A stretch of 64,000 nt of DNA from Candidatus Zambryskibacteria bacterium RIFCSPLOWO2_01_FULL_39_39 (GCA_001823925.1 MHWB01000013.1:9338-73337); one strand, 5' to 3'. Counted from the stretch's first letter, positions 1 to 60,230 are shown. Program-made: numbers and translations. Notes: generated by a model from the sequence alone, not told the origin.

Positions 1-1277
1 TCACCTTCTTTAAGGATGCTATGCATAGGAGAAAGTTTGCCGTTTATTTTTACTCCCGACATTTTGTTGCCTATATCTGAATGGATCAGATAAGCAAAAT
101 CAATAGCCGAAGATCCGACCGGCAAATCAACCACATCCCCTTTGGGTGTAAAAACGAATATTCTCTCGCTTAAAAAATCTTTCTTTATTTCTGTTACTGA
201 ATGTGGAAGCATAGATTCTATCCACGGCGTCAGATGCTTTCTGTCGCCTCCTTTATAAAGAGCGTGAGCGGCCACCCCATACTCTGATTCATGATGCATT
301 TCTTCTGTTCGTATTTGTATTTCTACTAAATCTCCGTTTCCGGTAAATACAGTGGTGTGCAAACTTTGGTAGCCATTTTGTTTTGGGCGGGCAATATAAT
401 CTTTGATCCTGCCAGGCAAAGGTTTCCAAGAAGAGTGAATGATGCCAAGTGCTCGGTAGCAATCCTCGGTTTTTTCAACAGTCAATCTAATTGCCAAAAT
501 ATCGTATATTTTTTCAATATCCTTTTTATTTTTTAAATATTTTTTGTACAGACTGTATAGACCTTTGACCCTGTAGTCAGAACGAAAATTGACGAAACTG
601 GCCTTGGCCAACTCCTTCATAACTGATTTCATAAATTTCTCTAGATTTTCAAGTCTCTCGCTATAATTTTCCTTGAAGACGGAAGATATTTCAGCATATC
701 CATCTTTGTAGACAAAGGGAAATGCCAAATCTTCAAGCTCGCGAGAAAGTTTGCGGATACCAAGGCGATAAGCAATAGGAGCATAAATCTCCAATGTTTC
801 TCTGGCGATTCTTTCTTGTTTTTCTAATGGTAAGAAAGAAAGAGTGCGCATATTGTGAAGACGGTCACAAAGTTTTACCATGAGGACTCGGATATCTTTT
901 GAAGTTGCCAAGAGTAATTTGCGCAATGATTCGTTGTGACGATCGGCTCCGTGGTATTTTAAAGCGCCAAGTTTAGAAACACCCAAGACTATAAACAAAA
1001 CTTCTTTACCAAATTCTTTCTCAATCATTTCAGGTGGGGTCTCTGTATCTTCTAAAATGTCGTGCAAAAATCCAGCCACGATAGTTGTAGTATCCATCCC
1101 CAACTCGGCAATATTTTTGGCTGTTTCAAAAAGGTGATTAAAATACGGCTCGCCACTCAGGCGTCTTTGTCCCTCATGCTTTACTCTGGCAAATTCATAT
1201 GCTTTTTTTATAAAATCCTTTTCCTCCTCGTCAGCTTTAATTAAGAGAGATATTAATTTTTCTAAGTCTTTTTCCAT
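1..1277 (-). CDS. relA: Bifunctional (p)ppGpp synthetase/hydrolase RelA/SpoT family, C-terminally truncated by window edge
   Basis: Minus-strand translation from ATG at 1277 (RBS GGAAGGAG) gives MEKDLEKLISLL...HD domain motif (HDILEDT), RelA/SpoT synthetase region (LHTTVF...EIQIRT) and TGS-like region. Runs off window start so absent from ORF track. Confidence 0.8.
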   Translation of the reverse strand, partial: MEKDLEKLISLLIKADEEEKDFIKKAYEFARVKHEGQRRLSGEPYFNHLFETAKNIAELGMDTTTIVAGFLHDILEDTETPPEMIEKEFGKEVLFIVLGVSKLGALKYHGADRHNESLRKLLLATSKDIRVLMVKLCDRLHNMRTLSFLPLEKQERIARETLEIYAPIAYRLGIRKLSRELEDLAFPFVYKDGYAEISSVFKENYSERLENLEKFMKSVMKELAKASFVNFRSDYRVKGLYSLYKKYLKNKKDIEKIYDILAIRLTVEKTEDCYRALGIIHSSWKPLPGRIKDYIARPKQNGYQSLHTTVFTGNGDLVEIQIRTEEMHHESEYGVAAHALYKGGDRKHLTPWIESMLPHSVTEIKKDFLSERIFVFTPKGDVVDLPVGSSAIDFAYLIHSDIGNKMSGVKINGKLSPMHSILKEG

Positions 1278-3580
1278 CTCCTTCCTATTTTTTTAGGCTC
1301 TTTTAATATTTCGAGAGCGCGTTCTAGAGTTATTTTATATACATCGTCTGTTTTGAGAGAACGAAAATCTTTTTGGTGGACGATATATGGTCCAAACCTG
1401 CCAATATTGGCAGAGATCATTTCTCCTGTTTCTGGCTGTGGCCCAAGCTCTCTTGGTAAACTCAAATATTTGAGTGCTTCATCCAAAGTAACACTATTTG
1501 GATCTTTATCTTTGGGGATACTTGATCTCCTTGGTTTTTCTTTCTTTTCTTTTTTAGTTTTTTCTTTTGGATTTGGTGCTTCGGATTTTGAATTTTGTCC
1601 CCCCAACTGTACATAAGGCCCAAACCTACCGTCCATTATAAAAACCGGAAGCCCTGTTGCACTGTCAACTCCAATAGGTTCTGCTTCCTTTATTTCAGAA
1701 CCGTCAATATTTCGCATACCCTTGCAATCTGGAAATTTTTCGCAACTCAAAAATTTGCCTCCCTTACCGAGCTTGATTATCATACCTGCGCCACAGATGG
1801 GGCATTTAAGTTTGGGATCGGCGTCTCCTAGGTTAGTGAGTTTGGCCGTCTTTTCCTTTTCTTTTACATCTTTCAAAAATGGTTTATAAAATTCTCGCAG
1901 AGTTGGTTCGTACTCTCTTTTACCTTCTGCAATTTGGTCAAGTTCATCTTCCATTTCGGCAGTGAAGGTGTCGCTTATATAATTTTCAAAATTATTTTCT
2001 AAAAATGTTGAGACGACATCGCCGGTGTCTGTCGGTTTAAGTGTCCGACCATCTTTATCTACATAACCTCTATCTATGATGGTACCGATGATAGAAGCAT
2101 AGGTGCTAGGTCTGCCAATACCCCTTTTTTCCAATTCTTTGATGAGCCCAGCTTCGCTATATCTGTTTGGTGGTTCGGTCTGTTTTTCTTCTTGTTTTAA
2201 ATCTAATAAGGAAAGATTATCTCCTTGTTTAACTTTTGGCAACAAGGTATCCTCACTCTTTGCTTCTGGGTCAGCCATGAGCCAGCCACTTTTTATAACT
2301 CGGGAGCCATTGGCTGCAAAATCTGGGACGGTGGCAATGTCAAAGACGGGCTTTTTGGAAATTTCTTCAAAGCCCGTCTTTGACATTGCGGACACCTGCG
2401 CCGTTATCTTGGTACGCATCATCAAGGCATCTTGCATTTGGGAGGCGACAGCTCTCTGCCATATCAGTTGGTACAACTTCTTTTGATCATCATTTGCGCC
2501 AGCATTCTCTTTTTCAAAATGAGTGGGCCTTATCGCTTCGTGAGCCTCCTGGGCATTTTTGGATTTAGTTTTATAAGTGCGAATTTGGTGAAGTTCTGCT
2601 CCAAATTTTTTTGTTACCACACTTTTTATTTGCCCCAATGCTACAGTCGCCATATTTAAACTATCAGTACGCATATAGGTGATGTGTCCAGCTTCATAAA
2701 GTTTTTGAGCCACCATCATCGTCCGCTTAGGACTAAACCCTAGTCTAGTACTTGCTACTTGTTGTAAAGTAGAGGTGGTAAAAGGGGCTTTGGGCGCTCT
2801 CTTTACTTCGGTCTCGGTCACATCTTTGACAGACCAAACTCCTTCTTTGGCTACATTATAAATTTTATCCGCCTCAATTTTTGTTTTTGGTTCTTCCTCG
2901 CAAAAAGCAGTGAAGGTAGCAATGTCAAGGGCGGGCTTTGAAGAAATTTCCAAAAAGCCCGCCCTTGACATTGCACCCACTTTCAAATTTGCAGAAATAA
3001 CGAAAAATGTCTCTGGTTTGAAAGCTCGTATCTCTCGCTCTTTTTCCATTAGTATTCGCAAAGCTGGGGATTGAACTCGGCCAGCCGAAAGACCGTATCT
3101 GACTTTTTTCCAAATAAGTCCCGATAAGTCATATCCCACCAGTCTATCAAGCACCCTTCTGGCTTCTTGGGCCTTTCTCAAATTTTGATCAATACTTCTG
3201 GGGTGTTTGAGAGCTTCCTCGATCGCTTCCTTGGTAATTTCGTGATAAGTAACTCTGCTAATCTTTTTCTTGCTTCCAAAATCATCTTTAATTATTTCAG
3301 CCAAGTGCCAAGCGATAGCCTCACCTTCTCGGTCGGGGTCGGTCGCGAGCAAAACTTCATCTGCCTTTTTTACAAGAGCTTTTATCTCTGCGACCACCTT
3401 TTCTTTACCCTTTGAAATTTCATAGTGGGGGATAAAGCCACCTTCTATGTCGATGGCTTTTTTATTACTTTTTGGCAGATCACGAATATGGCCGACGCTA
3501 GCTACAACCTCGTATTCACTTCCTATATATTTGCCAATAGTTTTTGCTTTGGCAGGGGATTCTACAATTAATAATTTCAT
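1262..3580 (-). CDS. topA: DNA topoisomerase I
   Basis: 772 aa; N-terminal TOPRIM MKLLIVESPAKAKTIGKYIG, C-terminal Zn-ribbon CPICGAGMII...CEKFPDC; carries two in-frame palindromic insertions (see repeats). Confidence 0.9.
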   Translation of the reverse strand: MKLLIVESPAKAKTIGKYIGSEYEVVASVGHIRDLPKSNKKAIDIEGGFIPHYEISKGKEKVVAEIKALVKKADEVLLATDPDREGEAIAWHLAEIIKDDFGSKKKISRVTYHEITKEAIEEALKHPRSIDQNLRKAQEARRVLDRLVGYDLSGLIWKKVRYGLSAGRVQSPALRILMEKEREIRAFKPETFFVISANLKVGAMSRAGFLEISSKPALDIATFTAFCEEEPKTKIEADKIYNVAKEGVWSVKDVTETEVKRAPKAPFTTSTLQQVASTRLGFSPKRTMMVAQKLYEAGHITYMRTDSLNMATVALGQIKSVVTKKFGAELHQIRTYKTKSKNAQEAHEAIRPTHFEKENAGANDDQKKLYQLIWQRAVASQMQDALMMRTKITAQVSAMSKTGFEEISKKPVFDIATVPDFAANGSRVIKSGWLMADPEAKSEDTLLPKVKQGDNLSLLDLKQEEKQTEPPNRYSEAGLIKELEKRGIGRPSTYASIIGTIIDRGYVDKDGRTLKPTDTGDVVSTFLENNFENYISDTFTAEMEDELDQIAEGKREYEPTLREFYKPFLKDVKEKEKTAKLTNLGDADPKLKCPICGAGMIIKLGKGGKFLSCEKFPDCKGMRNIDGSEIKEAEPIGVDSATGLPVFIMDGRFGPYVQLGGQNSKSEAPNPKEKTKKEKKEKPRRSSIPKDKDPNSVTLDEALKYLSLPRELGPQPETGEMISANIGRFGPYIVHQKDFRSLKTDDVYKITLERALEILKEPKKIGRRWKKT
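2335..2388. repeat. 54-bp palindromic element (TGTCAAAG stem) inserted in frame in topA, encodes MSKTGFEEISKKPVFDIAT
   Basis: tgtcaaagacgggcttt / aaagcccgtctttgaca perfect 17-bp stems around loop ttggaaatttcttcaa. Confidence 0.7.
2920..2973. repeat. Second copy of same palindromic element in topA, opposite orientation, encodes MSRAGFLEISSKPALDIAT
   Basis: tgtcaagggcgggcttt / aaagcccgcccttgaca stems; loop is reverse complement of loop of copy at 2335. Confidence 0.7.
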
Positions 3581-3688
3581 GACACGACACTAATTACGAA
3601 TAAGGAACGAATGACACAAATAAATTAAGAATAATAGGATAAGGATATGTTATAAAAATAAAAAAAGCAAAAATACCTCACCCCCCAA

Positions 3689-3714
3689 CCCCTCTCCTAG
3701 ATGTAGGAGAGGGG
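3689..3714. repeat. GC-rich hairpin cccctctcct-agatgt-aggagagggg (possible bidirectional terminator between topA and flp-like gene)
   Basis: perfect 10-bp inverted repeat in AT-rich intergenic DNA; member of CCCTC..GAGGG hairpin family. Confidence 0.5.
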
Positions 3715-6880: not shown

Positions 6881-7267
6881 ATGAACTCTAAATTTCTTTA
6901 TAATAATAAAGTTTTGAGAGATCGCAGACAAGAGTTAAGAAATGGTGCGACTGAATCGGAAAAAATTCTTTGGAATAATTTGAAACACAGTAAACTCGGA
7001 GGTTTTAAATTTGTAAGACAGTATAGTGTTGGCCCTTATATTCTGGATTTTTATTGTCCAAAATTGCGATTGGCAATAGAATTAGATGGAAGCCAACATA
7101 GCGAGCGAGATGCAATTTTGTATGATAAAGATAGGAATGATTATTTGGACGCTGTGTATATAAAAGTTTTGAGATTTTGGAATATGGAGATAACAAAAAA
7201 TATAAAAGGGTCGATTGATAAAATTTTACAAGAAATACTTAAAGTAGCAGACCCCCTCTTAAAATAA
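6881..7267 (+). CDS. DUF559 (Vsr-like restriction-endonuclease fold) domain protein
   Basis: 128 aa; ILWNNL...FKFVRQYSVGPYILDFYCPKLRLAIELDGSQH...RNDYLD..YIKVLRFWN.EI matches DUF559 pattern; same domain is embedded inside tgt at 49915-50160. Confidence 0.75.
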   Translation: MNSKFLYNNKVLRDRRQELRNGATESEKILWNNLKHSKLGGFKFVRQYSVGPYILDFYCPKLRLAIELDGSQHSERDAILYDKDRNDYLDAVYIKVLRFWNMEITKNIKGSIDKILQEILKVADPLLK

Positions 7268-7274
7268 GAGGGGG
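7252..7274. repeat. GC hairpin ccccctctta-aaa-taagaggggg at 3' end of DUF559 gene
   Basis: perfect 10-bp inverted repeat followed by cagggggtg. Confidence 0.5.
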
Positions 7275-7295
7275 CAGGGGGTGATATGAAATAAT

Positions 7296-11287: not shown

Positions 11288-12355
11288 ATGAATTTTTGGA
11301 ATGAAATGAAAAAGCCGATACTTTGTCTCGCGCCATTAGCAGATGTTACTGATGTGGCTTTTAGGCATATTATTGCTAAATATTCGAAAGAAATGTCAAA
11401 GGGCGCCTTCGAAATGCCCCGGTCCCAGAAGGCGCCCTTTGACATTTCTACCTACGTTACTTATACCGAATTTGTTTCGGCCGATGGACTTGTTTTGGCT
11501 CCGGAAACAGGTAGGAGAAGACTCTTAAAAGATTTGGAATATTCTGAAATAGAAAGGCCGATCGTGGCACAACTTTTTAGCAGTAATCCAGAGAATATGA
11601 AAAAAGTTGCTTCTCTTGTTATGGAATTAGGTTTTGATGGTGTAGATATAAATATGGGTTGTCCCGATAAAAGTGTAGAGAAGCAGGGAGCTGGTGCCGC
11701 CCTTATAAAGAACCCAAAGCTTGCAAGAGAAATAATAAGATATGCAAAGACAGGTATAAAAGAAGCAGCAGAGAGGCTGGGTAAAGAAGAAATACCGCTG
11801 TCAGTAAAAACCAGACTTGGTTATAACGATGATGAGTTAGAAAGTTGGTTGCCAGAATTATTGGCGGAAAATCCGGCAGCTATTATTATCCATGCTCGCA
11901 CAAGGAAAGAAATGTCTAAAGTCCCTGCTCGTTGGGAGCGTATCAGACGTGCCGTTGAGATAAGGGATGAAGTGTCAAGGTTCAACCTTGACACTCAAAA
12001 AACTTTAATAATTGGTAATGGAGATGTTTTAGATGTTGCAGATGCAATAAAAAAATGTGAAGAGAGTGGCGCAGACGGGGCCATGCTCGGGAGAGCAGTT
12101 TTTGGCAATCCTTGGCTCTTTTCTACCCACGTGCCGACCGCTTCCGAAAAATTAAAAGTCTTGCTGGAACATATTAAACTTTTTGAAGAAAAATTGGGTG
12201 GGGTAAAAAATTTTGCTGTTATGAAAAAACATTTCAAAGCTTACCTTTCTGGTTTTCCTGTTGGTAGTGATTTTAGACTAAAAGAATTAAGAGATAGGCT
12301 CATGCAAACAAAGGACGCTAAAGATGCGGAGATTTTGTTAAGCGAATACTTATAA
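11288..12355 (+). CDS. dusB: tRNA-dihydrouridine synthase (DusB-like) carrying two in-frame palindromic insertions
   Basis: 355 aa; LAPLADVTDVAFRHI...YTEFVSADGL...DINMGCPDK...IHARTR...GNGDV motifs of Dus family. Confidence 0.8.
   Translation: MNFWNEMKKPILCLAPLADVTDVAFRHIIAKYSKEMSKGAFEMPRSQKAPFDISTYVTYTEFVSADGLVLAPETGRRRLLKDLEYSEIERPIVAQLFSSNPENMKKVASLVMELGFDGVDINMGCPDKSVEKQGAGAALIKNPKLAREIIRYAKTGIKEAAERLGKEEIPLSVKTRLGYNDDELESWLPELLAENPAAIIIHARTRKEMSKVPARWERIRRAVEIRDEVSRFNLDTQKTLIIGNGDVLDVADAIKKCEESGADGAMLGRAVFGNPWLFSTHVPTASEKLKVLLEHIKLFEEKLGGVKNFAVMKKHFKAYLSGFPVGSDFRLKELRDRLMQTKDAKDAEILLSEYL
11391..11447. repeat. 57-bp palindromic element in dusB (20-bp perfect stems aaatgtcaaagggcgccttc, loop gaaatgccccggtccca), encodes MSKGAFEMPRSQKAPFDIS
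   Basis: insertion sits where Dus family has short KYG-to-TEMVSA linker; loop shared with elements at 21781 and 25994. Confidence 0.7.
11970..11994. repeat. Short palindrome agtgtcaagg-ttcaa-ccttgacact inside dusB (encodes VSRFNLDT)
   Basis: perfect 10-bp stems; family member of 4229 copy. Confidence 0.6.
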
Positions 12356-18716: not shown

Positions 18717-19628
18717 TTATTTATTGCCCCGTAAAAAATCTTCGTAAAGCATTTCTTTTTTACCTTCTGGTATTATTTTTAATATTTTTAATTTATCATC
18801 TTCAATTGTGGCATCTGTTATTATAATGCGTTTTTCTTTATTAAAATAATAAGAAGTGGGCCACTCTTCAAAGGCTTTTATTTTAAGCAAATTTTTAAGT
18901 GGATTGTCACTTAAATCAAGAAAGCCATCTTCTTTTTTTATTTTTTGGCAATAAGTTGCTTTATCTTCATTTTGTATTATTGGATCTATTGCTCCCAAGA
19001 GCCATTCTGGTAAAATATGAGCAAATAGTCCTGCTCCCTCTATTGCTAAAATTTTTTCTAATTCTTTTCTGCCGACCTCACCCCATGCCCCTTTGGTGCC
19101 TTGCTCCTCCCCTTGACAAGGGGAGGGGTTGGGGAGAGGTTTTTGAATTACAATAGGTCCTGTATCCATTGCTTCTTCAATCTGCATAATACTTACCCCC
19201 ACTTCCGTATCGTTATTTAAAATCTGACTCTGGATAGGAGAAGCGCCACGATATTTTGGCAACAGAGAAGGGTGGATATTTAAAGTTTTGTGTTTTGGTA
19301 TTTCAAAAATTTCTTTAGGAATTATTTTGCCGTAAGAAGCGACTAAAAAGAGATCCCAATCTCCAAATTTTACTTCGGTATTACGAAGAAATTCTTCTGC
19401 ATTAGAGCCCCGCTCACTTCTTAAGGTTTCTGGATCAAAAACTTCTATATTATTTTTTTGACCCCATACCCTTACTTCATTTGGAGTAAGTATCATCTTT
19501 CTGCCTTTTGGTCTGTCAGGAATTGTTATCAAAAGGTTTGGCAACATACCATGTTGTTTCAATTCGTCCAAAACATAAACAGAAAATCTTGAACTGCCAA
19601 AGAATGCCCAATGTACTTTGTTTATCAT
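18717..19628 (-). CDS. fmt: Methionyl-tRNA formyltransferase with Pro/Gly-rich insertion
   Basis: 303 aa; formyl-transferase N and C domains; insertion PLPNPSPCQGEEQGTKGAWGEVG coded by GC hairpin at 19104-19139. Confidence 0.85.
   Translation of the reverse strand: MINKVHWAFFGSSRFSVYVLDELKQHGMLPNLLITIPDRPKGRKMILTPNEVRVWGQKNNIEVFDPETLRSERGSNAEEFLRNTEVKFGDWDLFLVASYGKIIPKEIFEIPKHKTLNIHPSLLPKYRGASPIQSQILNNDTEVGVSIMQIEEAMDTGPIVIQKPLPNPSPCQGEEQGTKGAWGEVGRKELEKILAIEGAGLFAHILPEWLLGAIDPIIQNEDKATYCQKIKKEDGFLDLSDNPLKNLLKIKAFEEWPTSYYFNKEKRIIITDATIEDDKLKILKIIPEGKKEMLYEDFLRGNK
19104..19139. repeat. GC hairpin ctcctcccctt-gaca-aggggagggg + ttggggagagg inside fmt
   Basis: inverted repeat of CCCTCCCC/GGGGAGGG family. 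Confidence 0.55.
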
Positions 19629-20229: not shown

Positions 20230-22224
20230 CTATAACAAATTATCTGGATCTGTCTTAATCTCAAAGTGGGGAGGTAAAGATTTTAAAATAGAAAAAAGAG
20301 CAGAATCTACCCATTTTTCTTTGGGTATTTTAATGACGGCATTTATGGCAGATTGCTCACCCCTTTTTTCATGAATGGATGGGAAAATGGTGGCGCTATA
20401 ATTTTTATTTTCGGAATTTTCAAACACATTCTTCAACACTTGAGTTTCTTTTCCGACAAAACTTTTAGTGCCTCTCACTGTTATTTTTATAAAAATACTA
20501 AAAGGTGGGTAACTTAAAACCGCGCGATCCTCTATTTCCTTTTTATAAAATTCTATTAAATTGCCACTTCTTGCAAATTCTACAGTTGAATCTTTTGGGT
20601 TTCTGGTCTGTATCAAAAGGTTTTCTTTGGCTATACTTTTGGTTTGTAAAATAAGACGGAAAATTTTTTCTCTGATACGAAAATCAGGAATAGAGAATAG
20701 GGAATCAAAAGAACAAATAGCACTACTTCCCACTTTTTTATAAATATAAGAGAGAGCCATCTCGGTACCCAAAAGTATTGAGCCTTTATTTTCATAAAAG
20801 TTTTTGATTACATTTAAGGCTTTGGCGTTTGTTTCAACAATATCTTTGTGTAATTCAAAAAGATTTATGTTTGGGACACTCTTTCTTAATTCTTCGGCTA
20901 CTCTGTCAATACCAGAACCAAATGCCGCAAGCTTCCAGCTGTGACAATTTTGACAAACTTCTGCCGCGTCTCGTGTTTCGCCACATTGATGACATTTAAA
21001 AACGGCGCCATTTTGGGTACTTTGGTCCGGAGATGTTTTAGTTTTATATAAGATCATAGGAGATGAGCAGTTGAAACATTTTACCTGTTCTCCGCAGTCA
21101 CGGCAGACAGTAACCGACGATAAGCCTTTTCTAGCCGCAAATATAAACATATTAGAACCTTTTTCTATGGTTTTTTTGATTAAATTTAGTAATTCTGGCG
21201 ATATGGTTTTGAATTCTTTTCCTTGCCCCAATTCTTTCAAGTCTATTATGGTCGTTTTGATTTCAAGAGGCATTCGCCATTTGACGTTTTCAAATTCAGA
21301 TACTTCCCCTTGTTTGTATCTGTATAAAGTTTCTATTCTCAAAAAAGAATCTCCAATCACGGTACGGATATTTTTTTTATTAGCCAAAATTTCAGCAAAA
21401 AATCGAAGGTCTATAAAAGGTCGCGATAAAGTTTTCCAACCAGTTTCATTTTCTTTATCTATAATAATGGTGCCGAAATCTAATCTTGGCAAAAATAACC
21501 ATTTGGCTGTGGCTATAATTAATACAGGATGCTTTGTTTCGCATGCCCTTTTCCATTCCTTGATTAAATCCTTTTTCTTCATTTCATTATGAAAAGTGCA
21601 GACAAAGGATTCTATACCACGTTCTAGTTTTTCCTGAGTTTTTCGCACGTTTTCATTTTGAGGTAAGCATAGAAAAACTGATTTTTTCTTAGCAAATTCT
21701 TCCCTGATAAGAGATTTATAAAGATCTAATCTTTCCTCGTTTGGAGCTTGTAAGATAGCAATTTCATTTTTAATACTGTCGTTGCCAAGGACAGTCCTTA
21801 AACTGCCCCGGTCCCAAAGGACTGTCCTTGGCAACTGAAGCAAGTTTGGGTTTTCTAAAATGAAAGAAGGAATAAGTTGGGGAATAATATTGCCTTCTGT
21901 GGCGACAAAATATTTGGCCGTCTCTCTCACCGCTTCCAAGAATTTTTTTTGTAAAAATGGTTTAGCAGTTACGGCTGAAATTTTTTTTAATTGAAAATTT
22001 GCGGATTTTATAGAAAGTTTTGCCTCTGTCACGTCCTTACTTTCTAAAACCAAAGCTGAAACACTTTTTCCTCTAATGTTTATTTTTAACAAAGAACCGG
22101 GCTCTAAATATTTAGGTCCAAAATATGACAGTGACTCTTTACTCAAACCTTTTGAAAGTGGTAGACATTCTATGATAAACATATGCTTTAAGTAAAAAGC
22201 AAAAAGCCTAAAGTAGCAAGTCAT
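20230..22224 (-). CDS. priA: Primosomal protein N' (PriA helicase) with in-frame palindromic insertion
   Basis: 664 aa; helicase core plus Cys4-Cys4 zinc module CRDCGEQVKCFNC...CHQCGE...CQNCHS. Confidence 0.85.
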   Translation of the reverse strand: MTCYFRLFAFYLKHMFIIECLPLSKGLSKESLSYFGPKYLEPGSLLKINIRGKSVSALVLESKDVTEAKLSIKSANFQLKKISAVTAKPFLQKKFLEAVRETAKYFVATEGNIIPQLIPSFILENPNLLQLPRTVLWDRGSLRTVLGNDSIKNEIAILQAPNEERLDLYKSLIREEFAKKKSVFLCLPQNENVRKTQEKLERGIESFVCTFHNEMKKKDLIKEWKRACETKHPVLIIATAKWLFLPRLDFGTIIIDKENETGWKTLSRPFIDLRFFAEILANKKNIRTVIGDSFLRIETLYRYKQGEVSEFENVKWRMPLEIKTTIIDLKELGQGKEFKTISPELLNLIKKTIEKGSNMFIFAARKGLSSVTVCRDCGEQVKCFNCSSPMILYKTKTSPDQSTQNGAVFKCHQCGETRDAAEVCQNCHSWKLAAFGSGIDRVAEELRKSVPNINLFELHKDIVETNAKALNVIKNFYENKGSILLGTEMALSYIYKKVGSSAICSFDSLFSIPDFRIREKIFRLILQTKSIAKENLLIQTRNPKDSTVEFARSGNLIEFYKKEIEDRAVLSYPPFSIFIKITVRGTKSFVGKETQVLKNVFENSENKNYSATIFPSIHEKRGEQSAINAVIKIPKEKWVDSALFSILKSLPPHFEIKTDPDNLL
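21781..21835. repeat. 55-bp palindromic element in priA (stems ttgccaaggacagtcctt, loop aaactgccccggtccca) encoding LPRTVLWDRGSLRTVLGN
   Basis: near-identical to intergenic copy 25994-26048. Confidence 0.75.
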
Positions 22225-24345: not shown

Positions 24346-25365
24346 TTGGATATGTCATTTTTTTCTAAAAAATTGGGTATTGATTTGGGAACGGCCAACA
24401 CTCTGGTTTTTGTGCCGGGTAAGGGTGTAGTTTTAAACGAGCCTTCGGTGGTGGCTATTTCCCTTGAAGATAATAAAATTTTAGCAGTTGGTAATGAAGC
24501 AAAAATAATGATAGGCCGGACTCCTAAAGCTATTGTGGCTTATAGACCAATGAAAGATGGGGTAATCGCCGATTATAAAGTTACGGAAGCAATGCTTTCT
24601 TATTATATGAAAAAAGCTATGGGTGGCTGGGGTTTTATAAAACCAGAAGTGCTGATTAGTGTGCCAGCCGGAGTCACTTCTACCGAAAGAAGGGCGGTAA
24701 TAGAAGCGGCTATAAAAGCGGGGGCCAAGAATGCTTATGTCGTCAAAGAGCCCATTTTGGCGGCTATTGGAGCTGGTATCCCTATATATGAAGCCAGGGG
24801 ACATATGGTTGCTGATATTGGTGGGGGTACCACGGATGTGGCAGTGATCTCTTTGGGTGGTATTGTTTCAGCCACTTCGGTCAAATGTGCTGGTAACAAA
24901 ATTGACGAAAGTATAATTGATTACATCAAAAAAACTTTTAATTTGGCCATTGGAGATAAAACAGCGGAAGATATAAAAGTTAAAATAGGATCGGCATTAC
25001 CCATAGATGAAGAGCTTGTCATATCTATAAAAGGTAGAGATTTTATTTCAGGGCTCCCTAGATCAGTTGAAATCAAAACTAACGAAATAGTCAAAGCTAT
25101 TTCACGAGAACTTCGAGAGATAATAAAAGCGATCAAAGATGTCTTGCAAGAAACCCCACCCGAACTCGCTGCCGATATAATGGACCATGGTATTATCATG
25201 ACCGGAGGGACTTCCGCTCTCAGAAATCTTCCTGAACTGATCTTTAGAAGAGTTGGGGTAAAAGCAATCCTTGCAGAAAATCCTCTTTACTGCGTTGCAG
25301 AGGGTACTGGTATTGCTTTGGAACATTTGGGTGCCTACAAAAGAGTGGTGGCCTCTAAAAGATAA
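24346..25365 (+). CDS. mreB: Rod shape-determining protein MreB (paralog 1)
   Basis: 339 aa; actin-fold motifs GIDLGTANT, DIGGGTTDVAV, MTGGTS. Confidence 0.85.
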   Translation: MDMSFFSKKLGIDLGTANTLVFVPGKGVVLNEPSVVAISLEDNKILAVGNEAKIMIGRTPKAIVAYRPMKDGVIADYKVTEAMLSYYMKKAMGGWGFIKPEVLISVPAGVTSTERRAVIEAAIKAGAKNAYVVKEPILAAIGAGIPIYEARGHMVADIGGGTTDVAVISLGGIVSATSVKCAGNKIDESIIDYIKKTFNLAIGDKTAEDIKVKIGSALPIDEELVISIKGRDFISGLPRSVEIKTNEIVKAISRELREIIKAIKDVLQETPPELAADIMDHGIIMTGGTSALRNLPELIFRRVGVKAILAENPLYCVAEGTGIALEHLGAYKRVVASKR

Positions 25366-25993: not shown

Positions 25994-26048
25994 GTTGCCA
26001 AGGACAGTCCTTAAAATGCCCCGGTCCCAAAGGACTGTCCTTGGCAAC
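25994..26048. repeat. Intergenic copy of 55-bp palindromic element (holB-frr spacer)
   Basis: ttgccaaggacagtccttaaaatgccccggtcccaaaggactgtccttggcaa; 1 nt different from priA copy. Confidence 0.75.
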
Positions 26049-26052
26049 TTAA

Positions 26053-29094: not shown

Positions 29095-30162
29095 ATGTTC
29101 AAAGAGAAATTGGAAGAGTGGAAACGTGTTTTGCGCAATGATATAGGTATTGATTTAGGGACGGCCAACATGCTTGTTTATGTTCGTGATAAAGGTATTA
29201 TTTTAAACGAACCTTCAGTGGTGGCGGTCAATCAAAAAACAGGACAAGTAGTCGCTGTTGGGACGGAAGCTAAAAATATGCTTGGTCGAACACCGCCACA
29301 TATTGTTGCAGTGCGACCCATTGTTGATGGGGTTATATCTGATTTCGAAGTGACAGAAGAAATGCTTCACTATCTTTTAAACAAAGCCCAATCAGTGTCA
29401 AAAAAAATATTGGGACCTAGGGTAGTGGTAGGAGTGCCTTCCGGTATAACCAATGTAGAAACTAGAGCAGTCCGTGACGCTACCAAAAATGCAGGAGCAA
29501 GTGAAGTGCATATAGTAGAAGAGCCAATGGCAGCTGCTATAGGGATGCATTTACCGATAAATGAACCAACAGGTAATATGGTAATCGATATGGGCGGAGG
29601 CACGGCAGACATTGCAGTTATTTCTTTAAGTGGAGTTATTAGTTCTAAAAATGTCCGCATAGCGGGTGATAAATTAAGTAATGACATTGCCGCCTACATA
29701 AGAAGTGAATTCAAAATAGTAATCGGAGAAAAGACTGCTGAAAATATAAAAATAGCAATATGTTCACTCTTACCAGAAGAGGATCCATTAGAGACAGAAG
29801 CTAGGGGGCGAGATCTAATAACCGGATTGCCACGAGAGGTTGTGGTCACTGACTCTGATATGAGAGATGCGGTGTCACATTCGATCGAGAGGTTGGTAGA
29901 AGCTACCAAAGAAGTGTTGGAAATCACTCCACCAGAAATACTTTCTGATATTATGCATCGTGGTATTCATTTGGCTGGCGGAGGGGCTCTTATAAAGGGG
30001 TTTGCTAAAGTTTTGGAAAGAGAAATAAAAATACCAGTTTATATTGCCGATGACCCTTTGACCTGTGTTGTTCGTGGTACTGGTATAATTTTGGAAAAAC
30101 TTGAACAATTTAGAGAGGTTTTAATAGCTGATGAAAATGACATTTCAAATAAAACACACTAA
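29095..30162 (+). CDS. mreB: Rod shape-determining protein MreB (paralog 2)
   Basis: 355 aa; GIDLGTANMLVYV, DMGGGTADIAV, LAGGGA. Confidence 0.9.
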   Translation: MFKEKLEEWKRVLRNDIGIDLGTANMLVYVRDKGIILNEPSVVAVNQKTGQVVAVGTEAKNMLGRTPPHIVAVRPIVDGVISDFEVTEEMLHYLLNKAQSVSKKILGPRVVVGVPSGITNVETRAVRDATKNAGASEVHIVEEPMAAAIGMHLPINEPTGNMVIDMGGGTADIAVISLSGVISSKNVRIAGDKLSNDIAAYIRSEFKIVIGEKTAENIKIAICSLLPEEDPLETEARGRDLITGLPREVVVTDSDMRDAVSHSIERLVEATKEVLEITPPEILSDIMHRGIHLAGGGALIKGFAKVLEREIKIPVYIADDPLTCVVRGTGIILEKLEQFREVLIADENDISNKTH

Positions 30163-42831: not shown

Positions 42832-42892
42832 TTTGCCCCTTACCTTAGACAAGGTGAGGGGCAGTTCCGCTTTAGCGGAACGGGGTGGGGTC
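42832..42892. repeat. Structured GC-rich element: ccccttacctt-agac-aaggtgagggg + cag + gttccgc-ttta-gcggaac + ggggtggggtc
   Basis: same two-hairpin architecture and conserved single-stranded tracts as element at 55089-55140, with compensatory changes in second stem. Confidence 0.5.
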
Positions 42893-49155: not shown

Positions 49156-50778
49156 ATGTTTAAAATAGAGCAAAAAATCTCGAAGTCACTGGGTCGAGCT
49201 GGTGTTTTAATTACTCCACATGGGGAGGTACAAACACCTAGCTTTGTAGCTGTCGGTACTAAAGCAACGGTCAAATCTCTCTCACCCGAACAGGTCAAAG
49301 AGGCTGGGTCGCAAATAGTTTTGGCCAATACCTATCATCTTTATTTAGAACCCGGAGAAAAAATTGTGAAAGAAGCGGGGGGCTTGGGTAAGTTTATGAA
49401 TTGGCAAGGTCCAACTATGACAGACTCGGGCGGTTTTCAAGCTTTTTCTTTGGGGGTGGCTTATGGAAGTAAGCTTAGTAAATTTATTGGCAATGAGTCT
49501 CCAAAACAAGAAGAGATAGACGAAGCTTATAGAGAAGAGCGAGATAAGAAAGCAAAGATTACCGAAGATGGGGTGGAATTTAAATCTATTATAGATGGTA
49601 GCAAACATTTTTTTACTCCAGAAAAATCAATGCAAATTCAAAGTGACCTAGGAGCTGATATTATTTTTGCTTTTGATGAGTGTACTTCACCACATGCACC
49701 CAAGGAGTATTTGAAGGAAGCTTTGGCGCGGACTCATCGTTGGGCAGAAAGGTGTTTGATTGAATACAGAAAAAATCACCCCACCCCGACCCTCCCCGAA
49801 GGGGAGGGTGCCCAAAGGGGAACTTTCGGTTATCACACAACAGATTCGGTTACTTGGAAAAATCTTCAACAAAGAGTTTTAGAAATGAGAGAAAAACCTA
49901 CTCCCGCTGAAAATATGCTATGGCAACATTTAAGAAAAAATTCAACAAAATATCATTTTAGAAGACAACATATAGTGGGAAATTTTATTGTTGATTTTGT
50001 TTGCCTAGAAAAATCATTAGTAATTGAAGTTGATGGAGATATCCATGATTACCAAAAGGAAGAAGATAAATCCAGAACAGAGTTTTTAAATAAATTAGGT
50101 TTTTATATTTTAAGATTTAAGAACGAAGAGGTAGTAGAGAATATTTTAAAAGTATTAGAGGGTATAAAGGTTGGTCTTAAAGCCCTCCCCTTTGGGGAGG
50201 GTTTGGGTGGGGTTTCTTCCCAAGCTCTCTTTGGCATAGTCCAAGGTGGCAGGTATGAAGATTTGAGGAAAGAAAGCGCTAAGGTGATAGGAGAGATGGA
50301 TTTTGATGGTTTTGGCATTGGAGGCTCCTTTGTTAAAGAAGATATGGCGACAGCGGTCAAATGGGTGAGTGGAATTTTGCCAACTGATAAACCTAGGCAT
50401 CTTTTGGGGGTGGGAGAGCCTGTTGACATTATTTTTGGTGTTGAAAACGGATGCGACACATTTGACTGTGTCGCCGCGACACGTATGGCGCGCAATGGCA
50501 CACTCTATACCAAACGAGGTAAAATAAATATCAACAACGCCAAGTATAAAAATATTTTTGAGCCGATTGAAGAGGGGTGCAAGTGTTATACTTGTAAAAA
50601 TTATACCTGTTGCTACCTTTCCCACCTTTTTCGCTCCAAAGAAATGTTGGCCGCTACTTTAGCATCTATTCATAATCTTTATTTTATAAATTCTCTGGTT
50701 GCAGAGATGAGAGAATCAATTTTAAACGAAAATTTTTTTGATTTTAAAGAAAATTTTTTAAGAGATTATAAAGTTTAG
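49156..50778 (+). CDS. tgt: Queuine tRNA-ribosyltransferase carrying an in-frame ~145-aa insertion that contains a DUF559 endonuclease domain
   Basis: 540 aa; TGT N-terminal (LITPHGEVQTPSFVAVGT, LANTYHL, TDSGGFQ), then insertion between ERCLIEYRKN and QALFGIVQGG, then zinc site CKCYTCKNYTCCYLSH. Confidence 0.8.
   Translation: MFKIEQKISKSLGRAGVLITPHGEVQTPSFVAVGTKATVKSLSPEQVKEAGSQIVLANTYHLYLEPGEKIVKEAGGLGKFMNWQGPTMTDSGGFQAFSLGVAYGSKLSKFIGNESPKQEEIDEAYREERDKKAKITEDGVEFKSIIDGSKHFFTPEKSMQIQSDLGADIIFAFDECTSPHAPKEYLKEALARTHRWAERCLIEYRKNHPTPTLPEGEGAQRGTFGYHTTDSVTWKNLQQRVLEMREKPTPAENMLWQHLRKNSTKYHFRRQHIVGNFIVDFVCLEKSLVIEVDGDIHDYQKEEDKSRTEFLNKLGFYILRFKNEEVVENILKVLEGIKVGLKALPFGEGLGGVSSQALFGIVQGGRYEDLRKESAKVIGEMDFDGFGIGGSFVKEDMATAVKWVSGILPTDKPRHLLGVGEPVDIIFGVENGCDTFDCVAATRMARNGTLYTKRGKININNAKYKNIFEPIEEGCKCYTCKNYTCCYLSHLFRSKEMLAATLASIHNLYFINSLVAEMRESILNENFFDFKENFLRDYKV
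49777..50212 (+). mobile_element. DUF559-encoding insertion element with ~35-bp GC-rich hairpin terminal inverted repeats, integrated in frame within tgt
   Basis: left end accccaccccgaccctccccgaaggggaggg is approx reverse complement of right end ccctcccctttggggagggtttgggtggggt; internal 49915-50160 encodes MLWQHLRKNSTKYHFRRQHIVGNFIVDFVCLEKSLVIEVDGDIH...LRFKNEEV (DUF559). Confidence 0.55.
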
Positions 50779-50783
50779 ATAAT

Positions 50784-51635
50784 ATGATTTACAATCTTTA
50801 TAAACAGCGGGGGGAGACACCACTAGAATGTATCCAAAGATTTGCCAGAAAAACTCCAGAATTAAAGGGAGAGAAGATGACCTATTTGGGGAGGTTGGAC
50901 CCTTTGGCCGAAGGGGTTTTGCTTATGGCTAGTGGCATTGACGTAAAGAGGAAAGAGGAGTTTTTGGGGTTGGATAAGGAATATGATTTTATTTCTATTT
51001 TTGGCTTTGCTACCGACACCTATGATGTGCTTGGTAAAATTGTAAGAGTAGAAAAAGTGCCCATTCGACAAGCTCAGGGTGAAAATGCTAATACCATTTT
51101 CGAAAATGAAATTAGGAAAGTGGCGTTAATTTATGAAGGAGAAAGAGAACAGAAATACCCAACGTATTCTTCTAAAATTATAGCCAATAAAAAAACCTCA
51201 CCCCTCGCTTCGCGTAGCCCTCTCCTTGTTCAGGAGAGGGAAGGCGTGGAGTCAGGGTCTTTGGGTTTTCCCTCCCCTGAGCAAGGGGAGGGTGGGGTGG
51301 GGTTTTCTAAAAAAATTACTATACATAAAATTCAATTTCATAAATTAGAAACTCTAAACAATAAAGAACTTTTTGGTAGGCTTCTTTCAGATATTTCAAA
51401 AGTAAATGGTGATTTCAGACAGCATGAAATTTTGATTTTATGGAAAGAAATTTTACTTAATTCGGGTGCGCCCCGGAGTTATTTTTTGGGTAGGTTTAGC
51501 GCTCATGTCTCAAGTGGCACTTATATCCGCGGTTTGGTAAACGATATAGGCAATACTTTGGGTTGTGGGGCCACCACTCTTTCTATCAAAAGGACAAGGG
51601 TTGGGGATTACAAAATTGAAGACAGTATAAAATAA
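50784..51635 (+). CDS. truB: tRNA pseudouridine(55) synthase TruB-like with Pro/Gly-rich hairpin-encoded insertion
   Basis: 283 aa; LGRLDPLAEGVLLMA catalytic Asp motif, C-terminal SSGTYIRGLVNDIGNTLGCGATTLSIKRTRVG. Confidence 0.7.
   Translation: MIYNLYKQRGETPLECIQRFARKTPELKGEKMTYLGRLDPLAEGVLLMASGIDVKRKEEFLGLDKEYDFISIFGFATDTYDVLGKIVRVEKVPIRQAQGENANTIFENEIRKVALIYEGEREQKYPTYSSKIIANKKTSPLASRSPLLVQEREGVESGSLGFPSPEQGEGGVGFSKKITIHKIQFHKLETLNNKELFGRLLSDISKVNGDFRQHEILILWKEILLNSGAPRSYFLGRFSAHVSSGTYIRGLVNDIGNTLGCGATTLSIKRTRVGDYKIEDSIK
51199..51306. repeat. Tandem GC hairpins (ccctctcc-ttgttca-ggagaggg and ccctcccc-tgagcaa-ggggaggg) + ggtggggtggggtttt inside truB
   Basis: encodes SPLASRSPLLVQEREGVESGSLGFPSPEQGEGGVGF; same family as tgt TIRs. 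Confidence 0.6.
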
Positions 51636-55088: not shown

Positions 55089-55140
55089 TTTTTCCCTTCA
55101 CCTTCGCAAGGTGAGGGGCAGTTTTCCGTAAGGAAAACGA
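55089..55140. repeat. Second copy of structured GC-rich element: cccttcacctt-cgc-aaggtgagggg + cag + ttttccg-taa-ggaaaac + gaggtggggtc
   Basis: architecture and single-stranded tracts identical to 42832 element; second stem differs by compensatory substitutions. Confidence 0.5.
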
Positions 55141-55150
55141 GGTGGGGTCG

Positions 55151-59289: not shown

Positions 59290-59370
59290 AAGATTTCCCC
59301 CTTTCCTCCATAGTATGTCAAAAATCTACTTGAGATTTCTGAGGGGTATTATAACTAAGTGGATTATTTT

Positions 59371-59408
59371 TGTCAATACATTGACATTGTAATAAAAAAA
59401 TATATAAT
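59371..59408 (+). promoter_or_regulatory. Consensus sigma70 promoter TTGACA-16-TATAAT overlapped by palindrome TGTCAATACATTGACA (candidate operator)
   Basis: -35 59381-59386, -10 59403-59408, RBS AAGGGAG before ATG 59436. Confidence 0.55.
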
Positions 59409-59435
59409 ACAGATAGAAAAAAGGGAGAACATTTC

Positions 59436-60170: not shown

Positions 60171-60230
60171 CCGAGTAGAAAACAACCCCAAGACCATATG
60201 GCCCTGGGGTTTTTGTATCCATCTAGGAAA

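What the first reader, a model, noticed from the sequence alone, without database searches (positions are those of the whole stretch)
19104..19139. GC-rich CCCTCCCC/GGGGAGGG hairpins with a GGTGGGGT tail inserted in fmt and truB as Pro/Gly linkers
In fmt the site is 19104-19139; in truB it is 51199-51306 (two tandem hairpins). The fmt hairpin is ctcctcccctt-gaca-aggggagggg + ttggggagagg and encodes PLPNPSPCQGEEQGTKGAWG. The truB copy encodes SPLASRSPLLVQEREGVESGSLGFPSPEQGEGGVGF. Both are the same hairpin type that forms the TIRs of the DUF559 element in tgt. So solo TIR-like units (MITE-like) also insert in frame into housekeeping enzymes. The hairpins are GC islands (>70% GC) in a ~33% GC genome.
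Basis: seen in the sequence. Interest (0 to 1): 0.65.

Follow-up and report, generated by a model that had tools for sequence, protein, structure and literature searches.

The report
Nuclease-linked hairpin repeats inside essential genes
Two housekeeping genes of a tiny-genome (CPR) bacterium each carry a short GC-rich palindromic DNA element, read through as a floppy Pro/Gly loop; it is a miniature relative of a hairpin-ended element that encodes a Vsr-like nuclease, sits in frame in a third gene here, and has the same ends in many bacterial phyla.

Summary
Window source: Candidatus Zambryskibacteria (CPR). The fmt insert is a complete 66-nt unit (19075-19140) and the truB insert a 109-nt unit (51195-51303). 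Both are bounded by inverted termini ACCYCACCCC...GGGGTGRGGT around CCCTCCCC/GGGGAGGG hairpins, the same ends as the DUF559 element in tgt (49778-50213). Orthologs with short AT-rich loops at all three sites show these are insertions. The same sites carry other insert families in relatives (Fmt 66/120 and TruB 99/121 expanded). The Fmt insert models as a disordered surface loop. Insert DNA is 91-93% identical between orthologs whose synonymous sites are saturated (third-position identity 0.85-0.91 vs 0.42-0.44). The exact hairpin+tail unit occurs in at least 120 genomes across many phyla, mostly solo. DUF559 loci sampled by core similarity carry such ends in 21/80 cases vs 3/267 control windows. 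Close DUF559 relatives sit in frame in proteins of 72 Pfam families. No intein, intron or Rfam family is involved, and I found no published description. Closest analogues: Rickettsia palindromic elements, REPIN/RAYT, and EDxHD homing endonucleases. The mobilisation mechanism is inferred, not shown.

The parts
19075..19140 (.). Complete solo unit in fmt (66 nt, 22 codons). Layout: tail' ACCTCACCCC, a decayed left hairpin, the hairpin CTCCTCCCC-TTGACAA-GGGGAGGGG (19104-19128), then the tail TTGGGGAGAGGT. Read on the minus strand as PLPNPSPCQGEEQGTKGAWGEV.
   Evidence: disordered loop in the Fmt model; absent from P0008 and from the solved Fmt structures
18717..19628 (-). fmt (methionyl-tRNA formyltransferase), the host gene.
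   Evidence: Pfam PF00551/PF02911; 100% match to a Cand. Zambryskibacteria protein
51195..51303 (.). Composite solo unit in truB (109 nt). Layout: tail' ACCTCACCCC, a short CGC-TTC-GCG stem, the nested second unit with hairpin CCCTCTCC-TTGTTCA-GGAGAGGG (51218-51240), the hairpin CCCTCCCCT-GAGCA-AGGGGAGGG (51270-51292), then the tail GGGGTGGGGT.
   Evidence: -36.4 kcal/mol, z -6.5; P0125 has the single-hairpin version, which lacks the 51-nt nested unit; P0134 is empty
50784..51635 (+). truB (tRNA pseudouridine-55 synthase), the host gene.
   Evidence: Pfam PF01509; homologs
49778..50213 (+). Full-length DUF559 element in frame in tgt. Left end ACCCCACCCC-GA-CCCTCCCC-GAA-GGGGAGGG (49778-49808), DUF559 domain (about 49861-50172), right end CCCTCCCC-TTT-GGGGAGGG-TTT-GGGTGGGGT (50183-50213).
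   Evidence: (I7); the conserved catalytic-type residues are all present
49156..50778 (+). tgt (queuine tRNA-ribosyltransferase), the host gene. It is 540 aa here, against 403 aa for the empty allele in L126.
3675..3714 (.). Intergenic half unit: ACCTCACCCC-CCAA-CCCCTCTCC-TAGATGTA-GGAGAGGGG. It has the same hairpin and loop as the unit that ends the Tgt insert in L134.
6881..7267 (+). Second, free-standing DUF559 gene.
   Evidence: hmmsearch with the DUF559 profile, E 2e-31; sequence
7252..7288 (+). Hairpin+tail at the 3' end of the second DUF559 gene (CCCCCTCT-TAAAATA-AGAGGGGG-CA-GGGGGTGAT). The stop codon lies in the loop.
42832..42892 (+). Intergenic double-hairpin unit ending in GGGGTGGGGTC.
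   Evidence: D11; z -6.8
55089..55149 (+). Intergenic double-hairpin unit ending in GAGGTGGGGTC. Its second hairpin differs from the 42832 copy by compensatory changes.
   Evidence: (D11)

Best explanation
The fmt and truB segments are miniature, non-coding members of a palindromic mobile-element family. The full-length form encodes a DUF559 (Vsr-like, EDxHD-type) endonuclease between two ~31-35-nt inverted ends. Each end is a C-rich/G-rich hairpin (CCCTCCCC-loop-GGGGAGGG) followed by a G-tract tail (GGGTGGGGT). SHOWN: (1) The segments are insertions relative to orthologs and to solved homologs. (2) They share termini and hairpin with the DUF559 element in tgt and with DUF559 elements in unrelated genomes. 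(3) They are translated in frame as Pro-x-Pro...Gly-Glu-Gly...Gly-Gly-Val peptides; in Fmt this lies in a loop modelled as disordered, and in TruB and Tgt in an ortholog-variable segment. (4) The same composite insert occurs in different genes in different lineages, and units nest within units. (5) Insert DNA is far more conserved than the synonymous sites of the host gene. INFERRED: The element spreads by a nuclease-dependent route in which the DUF559 protein recognises the structured ends, as REP hairpins are recognised by RAYT. Copies that land in a gene survive only where length and frame keep the ORF open and the site is a permissive loop; this explains the repeated use of the same loops in gene-dense CPR genomes. 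The purine/pyrimidine-asymmetric arms contain no stop codons, and the arm is always read GGG-GAG-GGN here, so the ends double as flexible linkers. That also lets the nuclease be expressed as an internal domain of the host protein without an intein or intron.
For: Insertion polarity and boundaries. Shared ends: (L001: ACCCCACCCCC-AA-CCCCCTCCCC-GAA-GGGGAGGGGG ... GCCCTCCCC-TTC-GGGGAGGG-TA-GGGGTGGGGT; L003 LeuRS holds a full element plus a solo unit). Disordered loop: (pLDDT 86.6 overall; only residues 171-179 fall below 50). Mobility: the Tgt site is empty in L126, holds DUF559 here and in P0242/P0362, and holds a different composite unit in L134 that is also seen in TruB of P0127/P0128/P0137. 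Nesting: WIN vs P0125 vs P0122. Site occupancy: Fmt 66/120 and TruB 99/121 expanded. DNA-level conservation: 91%/93% identity and third-position identity 0.91/0.85, against 0.44/0.42 in the host gene; P = 5e-6 and 9e-5. A compensatory pair in P0004 and compensatory changes between the 42832 and 55089 copies. Nuclease link: DUF559 homologs from many phyla begin with ...PTPxLPxGEG and end with ...ALPxGEGxGG. 21/80 core-sampled DUF559 loci carry hairpin+tail ends at fixed distances, against 3/267 control windows. 74 of 142 closest representatives are long host proteins with an internal DUF559, spanning 72 Pfam families. Pan-bacterial motif: at least 120 genome loci. Not an intein or intron: Pfam finds only TGT, DUF559 and MTES_1575, and Rfam finds only two tRNAs.
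Against: No enzyme activity has been shown. No target-site duplication or defined insertion footprint was found. Only 3/124 genomic and 0/53 viral motif instances lie next to a DUF559 gene, and about three quarters of the sampled DUF559 loci lack detectable hairpin ends, so the partnership holds for a subclade rather than the whole family. Characterised relatives act either as homing endonucleases on empty alleles (I-Bth0305I, PMC3239194) or as VSP-repair-like nickases (VsrA, PMC12907096); neither mechanism by itself explains dispersal to new loci. All fmt and truB copies seen in relatives sit at identical boundaries, so no recent transposition event was caught. The excess conservation of the end motifs over the spacer within the fmt unit is not significant (4/40 vs 7/27 variable positions, Fisher p = 0.10). 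Whether Fmt, TruB and Tgt carrying the inserts are active was not tested.
Confidence: 0.62

Rival explanations
1. The hairpin units are an independent, pan-bacterial REP-like repeat family, spread by some other route. DUF559 genes are homing endonucleases whose target is that repeat. On this view the double-hairpin solo units are empty homing sites rather than deletion derivatives, and the ends seen around DUF559 belong to the repeat.
For: Solo units vastly outnumber nuclease-linked ones (3/124; 0/53). Many solo units in Nostoc, Cellvibrio and others are ~110-nt double-hairpin units with a central spacer, which is where the ORF would sit. EDxHD relatives are bona fide homing enzymes (PMC3239194; PMC3384342).
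Against: The DUF559 ORF is open end to end through both hairpins in a fixed frame, at fixed distances (53-99 nt upstream, 39-86 nt downstream) across phyla, and the end subtypes co-vary with the nuclease locus. That pattern fits one co-evolving unit better. No candidate alternative mobilising enzyme was seen in the window. This rival and the main explanation both predict a specific DUF559-hairpin interaction, so they differ only in the direction of dependence.
Confidence: 0.25
2. The units were mobile once but are now kept by the host for a function of their own. Candidates are a structured DNA/RNA signal (hairpin or G-quadruplex) or a useful flexible loop. On this view the strong nucleotide conservation reflects host-level selection.
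For: Third-position identity of 0.85-0.91 against 0.42-0.44 in the host genes. A compensatory stem change. Three of the window's four canonical G4 motifs (0.17 expected) are element termini. The inserts are retained across orthologs only 67-80% identical in protein.
Against: Many orthologs do without any insert, or carry unrelated inserts at the same site, so no specific sequence is required for Fmt or TruB function. The units are not terminator-like and match no Rfam family. The Fmt insert is modelled as disordered.
Confidence: 0.1
3. The segments are not mobile DNA at all: they are lineage-specific loop expansions that converged on Pro/Gly-rich sequence, or an assembly artefact.
For: Both sites are hypervariable loops where many kinds of expansion are tolerated.
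Against: The same 25 specified bases in the same order recur in at least 120 genomes from many phyla and in 51 viral contigs, and flank DUF559 genes in unrelated contigs. Independent assemblies from different samples carry the same inserts. The GC content of 62-67% stands out against 33-36% host genes.
Confidence: 0.02

Closest known systems
Rickettsia palindromic elements (RPEs; Ogata et al. 2000, as summarised in PMC10969869)
   Same: Short palindromic repeats inserted in frame into unrelated housekeeping genes of a reduced genome. They are translated as extra peptide segments at positions compatible with the protein fold, and copies also occur between genes.
   Different: Different host phylum (CPR) and an unrelated sequence. 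The units here are shorter (33-109 nt against roughly 100-150). They share their ends with a nuclease-encoding full-length element, and the end motif is conserved across many phyla; RPEs have no known coding partner and are restricted to one genus.
REP/REPIN elements with RAYT transposases (from my own knowledge: Nunvar 2010; Bertels & Rainey 2011)
   Same: GC-rich hairpin units, often as inverted doublets that fold into one long hairpin. They are dispersed in many solo copies, while a low-copy protein gene is itself flanked by the units in inverted orientation.
   Different: The flanked gene is a DUF559/Vsr-like PD-(D/E)XK nuclease, not an IS200/IS605-type Y1 transposase (Pfam). REPs are extragenic, whereas these units are frequently read through inside ORFs. 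The ORF of the flanked gene runs through the hairpins.
EDxHD homing endonucleases (I-Bth0305I; PMC3239194, PMC3384342) and intein- or intron-borne homing endonucleases
   Same: The same nuclease superfamily (Vsr-like; Pfam groups VSR/DUF559, PMC3424549). They reside inside essential genes, with recurrent occupation of one site in a conserved gene (tgt here and in P0242/P0362).
   Different: There is no intron (Rfam) and no intein domain (Pfam). The nuclease is simply translated as an internal domain between hairpin-encoded linkers. Structured inverted ends and abundant miniature derivatives are not features of described homing endonuclease genes.
Bacterial MITEs (e.g. Correia, Nezha, ERIC; review PMC10969869)
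   Same: Terminal inverted repeats, small size, no coding capacity, many copies, occasional in-frame fusions with host ORFs, and a longer element with the same ends.
   Different: No target-site duplication was detected, and the longer partner encodes no recognisable transposase.
Cyanobacterial small dispersed repeats (Elhai et al. 2008; from my own knowledge, not checked here)
   Same: Very short palindromic units that nest within one another. The Nostoc copies of the present motif may overlap with that catalogue.
   Different: I could not test whether they are the same elements. A link to DUF559, or in-frame residence in genes, is not part of that description as far as I know.

Membership tests
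MITE | Terminal inverted repeats bounding a short non-coding element | tested here: met
   ACCTCACCCC...GGGGAGAGGT (fmt) and ACCTCACCCC...GGGGTGGGGT (truB); the outer stems pair in the DNA folds
MITE | Target-site duplication flanking the element | tested here: not met
   The flanks of seven units show no direct repeat, only A-rich left and T-rich right context
MITE | Autonomous partner with the same ends that encodes a transposase | tested here: not met
   A partner with the same ends exists (49778-50213), but it encodes DUF559/MTES_1575 nuclease domains only
Rickettsia palindromic elements | Palindromic repeat inserted in frame in protein-coding genes at fold-compatible positions | tested here: met
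   In frame in fmt, truB and tgt. The Fmt insert is the only segment below pLDDT 50, between a strand and a helix
Rickettsia palindromic elements | Sequence membership in the RPE families of Rickettsia | not tested
   No RPE sequences were available to compare. The host is a CPR bacterium and the motif is pan-bacterial, so membership is not claimed
REP/REPIN-RAYT | Hairpin units, often as inverted doublets, dispersed in many copies | tested here: met
   About ten units in 64 kb; double-hairpin units in many phyla
REP/REPIN-RAYT | Associated gene is a Y1 (IS200/IS605-like) tyrosine transposase flanked by the units | tested here: not met
   The flanked genes are DUF559
EDxHD / DUF559 Vsr-like nuclease (protein of the full-length element) | DUF559 domain with the conserved acidic and histidine residues | tested here: met
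   PF04480, E 5e-32. Invariant D41, E52, D54, H58 and D65 in alignment A4, whose first row is the window protein. PDB 3HRL, E 1e-20
EDxHD homing endonuclease | Carried in a self-splicing intron or an intein, or free-standing next to its target | tested here: not met
   No Rfam intron and no intein/Hint domain for the tgt copy, which is translated in frame. The second copy (6881-7267) is free-standing
EDxHD homing endonuclease | Cleaves the empty allele of its own insertion site | not testable with these tools
   Needs biochemistry. Empty alleles are available as substrates (the L126 tgt)
Intein | Hint splicing domain with N-terminal Cys/Ser and C-terminal His-Asn plus a nucleophile | tested here: not met
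   The insert runs HPTPTLPEGEG...GLGGVSS|QALFG and Pfam finds no Hint domain

The most novel reading that the evidence does not exclude
A pan-bacterial class of selfish elements built around a Vsr-like (DUF559) nuclease. The elements live in frame inside host proteins without any splicing. Their structured ends (a hairpin overlapping a G-quadruplex motif) serve three purposes: they are the nuclease's recognition sites, they are stop-free linker-coding sequence, and they are the seed of abundant miniature derivatives. Those derivatives pepper the permissive loops of essential enzymes in gene-dense CPR genomes. This would be a third way, besides introns and inteins, for a nuclease gene to reside harmlessly inside an essential gene.
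Probability: 0.35. Interest if true: 0.85.

Novelty: new variant of a known kind. Interest (0 to 1): 0.7.

Why it matters
In-frame palindromic 'selfish DNA' has so far been essentially a Rickettsia curiosity. Here the same phenomenon appears in the Candidate Phyla Radiation, at sites that are recurrent hot spots across dozens of orthologs. It is also tied to a candidate enzyme and to a DNA motif conserved across phyla. If the DUF559-hairpin partnership is real, it would:

- assign a role to a large family of unknown function (21,817 representative clusters);
- explain many odd 'domain fusions' of DUF559 with tRNA synthetases, MetH, TGT, helicases and restriction enzymes as insertions of a mobile element;
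- offer a route of protein-loop and linker innovation in minimal genomes;
- warn annotators that Pro/Gly-rich low-complexity loops and length variation in CPR core proteins may be element-derived.

The hairpin/G4 ends with a small nuclease are also directly testable in vitro.

Tried and rejected
1. **Intrinsic terminators:** the consensus scan flags none of the units, because the T-run is not adjacent to the inner stem.
2. **Known RNA family or intron:** Rfam at gathering threshold finds only two tRNAs in the window.
3. **Intein:** no Hint domain or splice-junction residues.
4. **Target-site duplications:** none seen.
5. **Units open in all six reading frames:** rejected. Loops such as TTTATAA or TGAGCAA introduce stops in some frames; only the arms and tails are stop-free.
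6. **TruB structure:** the AF2 model is too poor to use (pLDDT 54.8, pTM 0.37).
7. **Every hairpin unit sits next to a DUF559 gene:** rejected (3/124; 0/53 in viral contigs).
8. **Every DUF559 gene has hairpin ends:** rejected (21/80).
9. **Ends more conserved than the spacer within the fmt unit:** the trend is there but is not significant (p = 0.10).
10. **Occupancy count:** a first regex-based count for Fmt caught only 14 sequences, so it was replaced by an alignment-column count.
11. **Literature:** searches for DUF559 with hairpins or repeats, for EDxHD, for the motif strings, and for MITEs in CPR found no description of this element. Subscription-only papers are not covered.

Full report
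**What is there.** The window (38.7% GC) comes from a Candidatus Zambryskibacteria (Parcubacteria/CPR) genome; its Fmt is 100% identical to a protein of that organism. The two sites read as the finding says. fmt (18717-19628, minus strand; Pfam Formyl_trans_N/C) and truB (50784-51635; TruB_N) each contain a GC-rich block. The neighbouring tgt (49156-50778) contains a DUF559 domain between 31-nt inverted repeats. GGGGAGGG occurs 8 times against 1.27 expected, and the tail GGGTGGGGT with up to one mismatch occurs 21 times against 6.6 expected.

**Anatomy.**
- In fmt the hairpin (19104-19128) plus tail (to 19140) is preceded at 19075 by ACCTCACCCC, the inverse of the tail. The unit is therefore 66 nt, exactly 22 codons, and amounts to little more than the two element ends joined.
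- In truB the unit runs from 51195 to 51303. It has the same inverted termini, two hairpins, and folds into one long palindrome (-36.4 kcal/mol, z -6.5). The fmt unit folds with its termini paired (z -3.6).
- The tgt element reads ACCCCACCCC-GA-CCCTCCCC-GAA-GGGGAGGG ... DUF559 ... CCCTCCCC-TTT-GGGGAGGG-TTT-GGGTGGGGT.
- More family members lie between genes at 3675-3714, 42832-42892 and 55089-55149. The last two keep a second hairpin through compensatory changes.
- A second, free-standing DUF559 gene (6881-7267) ends in a hairpin+tail at 7252-7288.

**They are insertions.**
- Among the 120 closest Fmt orthologs, the segment between DTGPIVIQK and GRKELEKILA has a modal length of 9 residues. It is expanded in 66 of them, at least 23 of which show the Pro...Gly-Glu-Gly signature.
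- For TruB, the segment between YSSK and KKITIHK is expanded in 99 of 121, at least 25 of which show the signature.
- At codon level the empty fmt allele (P0008) has eight AT-rich codons where the window has 22 GC-rich ones. The empty truB allele (P0134) and an empty tgt allele (L126, 403 aa) also exist.
- Solved Fmt structures (E. coli 1FMT/2FMT, and 4IQF) align with a 13-residue gap across the insert.
- In the AlphaFold model of the window's Fmt (pLDDT 86.6, pTM 0.87), the only segment below pLDDT 50 is residues 171-179. It lies inside the insert, between strand 159-164 and helix 187-210. The TruB model was too poor to use.

**Evidence of mobility and nesting.**
- The window's truB unit equals the single-hairpin unit of P0125 plus a 51-nt second hairpin unit nested inside it. 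P0122 has a third insertion nested in turn.
- The tgt site is empty in L126. It holds DUF559 here and in P0242/P0362. In L134 it holds a different composite insert (…HSLEQPGYFSTEKSPHSPASRGPRVAL…SSPLLHLGEGAGGEV).
- That composite insert is also found in TruB of other lineages. Its terminal hairpin, CCCCTCTCC-TACATCTA-GGAGAGGGG, has the same loop as the window's intergenic copy at 3689.
- Other, unrelated insert families use the same Fmt and TruB sites.

**An unexpected property.** I compared orthologs that share the insert but are only about 67-70% identical in protein.

| Comparison | Insert nt identity | Insert third-position identity | Rest of gene nt identity | Rest of gene third-position identity | Binomial P (third position) |
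|---|---|---|---|---|---|
| fmt, window vs P0005 | 91% | 0.91 | 68% | 0.44 | 5e-6 |
| truB, window vs P0125 | 93% | 0.85 | 67% | 0.42 | 9e-5 |

One ortholog (P0004) carries a compensatory double change in the stem. The inserts are therefore not neutrally decaying fossils. They are either constrained at the nucleotide level, or homogenised or re-acquired. The end motifs vary less than the spacer (4/40 vs 7/27 positions), but this is not significant (p = 0.10).

**Link to the nuclease.**
- Searching with the tgt insert shows DUF559 proteins from Bacteroidota, Cyanobacteria, Chloroflexota and CPR that begin with …PTPxLPxGEG and end with …ALPxGEGxGG, the peptides encoded by the hairpins.
- DNA of two unrelated contigs confirms the same ends. 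L001 has a free-standing ORF that is open from end to end, with the stop codon just after the tail. L003 has one free-standing copy, one copy in frame inside a 1103-aa LeuRS, and a solo unit in the same LeuRS.
- An exhaustive search finds 21,817 representative clusters at E ≤ 1e-3. Of the 142 new closest representatives, 74 are proteins of 280 aa or more with the DUF559 block internal. They span 72 Pfam families, with LeuRS, Type ISP and Eco57I restriction enzymes, TPR proteins, SpoIIE, GT2, MetH, TGT and epimerase recurring. An Lhr helicase is another host (L106).
- I then sampled 80 DUF559 loci by core-domain similarity only, with the termini trimmed from the query. Of these, 21 carry a pyrimidine/purine hairpin plus tail on at least one side at fixed distances, against 3 of 267 control windows. 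The three closest relatives all do, and end subtypes co-vary within a locus.
- The link is therefore strong for a subclade of DUF559, not for the whole family.

**Distribution of the unit.** These span Cyanobacteria, Alpha-, Gamma- and Deltaproteobacteria, Chloroflexota, Bacteroidota, Saccharibacteria, Ignavibacteria and Nitrospinota. It also occurs on 51 viral-labelled contigs. Only 3 of the 124 genomic instances, and none of the 53 viral ones, lie next to DUF559. Many are the right half of a ~110-nt double-hairpin unit with the same layout as the truB insert. Outside CPR most copies are intergenic; credible in-frame cases include a PheT and a GT2 protein. The tail together with the 3' arm forms a canonical G-quadruplex motif, and three of the four G4 motifs in the window (0.17 expected) are element ends.

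**Mechanism.**
- Shown: insertion, in-frame read-through, shared ends with a nuclease-encoding element, reuse of sites, nesting, and nucleotide-level conservation.
- Inferred: the DUF559 nuclease acts on the structured ends, in an analogy to REP/RAYT. Survivors in genes are filtered by frame, length and loop permissiveness, as for RPEs.
- Documented relatives: a homing endonuclease (I-Bth0305I; PMC3239194, PMC3384342, PMC9403480) and a VSP-repair-like enzyme (VsrA, PMC12907096).
- Main rival: the hairpin repeat is independent and is the homing target of DUF559.
- Not supported: terminators, known RNA families, an intein, and target-site duplications.

**Comparison and novelty.** The closest functional analogue for the fmt and truB inserts is the Rickettsia palindromic element. 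A 2024 review still treats RPEs as the outstanding case of in-frame MITE-like insertion and names no nuclease partner (PMC10969869). Membership of the MITE, REPIN/RAYT, intein or intron-borne homing-endonuclease families fails on at least one defining feature each (see the membership table). None of the 25 papers in the library that mention DUF559 describes hairpin ends or in-frame mobility; one noted a DUF559 fusion to a SPOUT methyltransferase as a curiosity (PMC1829167). I therefore rate this as a new variant of a known kind. There is a substantial chance that the full-length element represents an undescribed way for a nuclease gene to reside inside essential genes.

Noticed in passing
window 21781-21839 and 25994-26052 (also partial at 11412-11444): A different 59-nt perfect palindrome (GTTGCCAAGGACAGTCCTT...AAGGACTGTCCTTGGCAAC) is present in two copies that are 97% identical. 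One is read through inside the 664-aa priA-like ORF 20230-22224 (minus strand; peptide ...QLPRTVLWDRGSLRTVLGN...). The other is intergenic. This looks like a second in-frame palindromic family in the same genome.
   Followed up: partly
window 2318-2389 and 2903-2974: Two 72-nt palindromes (GCAATGTCAAAGACGGGCTTT...AAAGCCCGTCTTTGACATTGC; 79% identical to each other, each with self-complementary 28-nt arms). Both lie inside the 772-aa ORF 1262-3580 (minus strand). This may be a third read-through palindrome family (D6/I1/I17/I18).
   Followed up: no
window 6881-7267: A second, more diverged, free-standing DUF559 gene. Its stop codon lies in the loop of a 3' hairpin+tail (7252-7288), and no left end is recognisable.
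   Followed up: partly
Fmt and TruB orthologs (P0001-P0240): The same two loops host several other recurrent insert families with no Pro/Gly hairpin signature. In TruB: SREQLSDRDWRESEEIFQQKNTP, SFSSESPRVALSGSTRLSSENF and KFEDDPLGQGQFKGHPL. In Fmt: ISNFQFSIP, THPDSVSTSLTLREV and FSEKFFERL, plus inserts of about 90 aa. These are probably further repeat families of Parcubacteria.
   Followed up: no
window 58000-62000: GC content rises to 45-52%, against 29-41% across most of the rest of the window (18-58 kb). This may be a foreign or otherwise atypical segment.
   Followed up: no
window 24376-24455 and 29146-29225: An 80-nt stretch that is 80% identical sits at the 5' ends of two ORFs (24346-25365 and 29095-30162). 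The GIDLGTAN-type start suggests paralogous actin-like (MreB-type) genes (D4).
   Followed up: no
window 41099-41126: This is the only canonical G-quadruplex motif in the window that is not an element end (GGGAAAAGTGGGGAAGCAATGGGGCGGG). It lies inside the ORF 40396-42117.
   Followed up: no
L134 2015-2510: In a relative, the tgt-truB spacer is about 480 nt long and begins with a long palindrome (TTGTGACAAATTTGACGGCCGTCAAATTTGTCACAA). In the window the two genes are only 5 nt apart.
   Followed up: no
protein database vs window: The window's own 540-aa Tgt-DUF559 protein was not returned by the word-indexed search; the best hit was 60% identical. The best TruB hit was 99% identical, not 100%. 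Either these proteins are missing from that collection or the gene calls differ.
   Followed up: no
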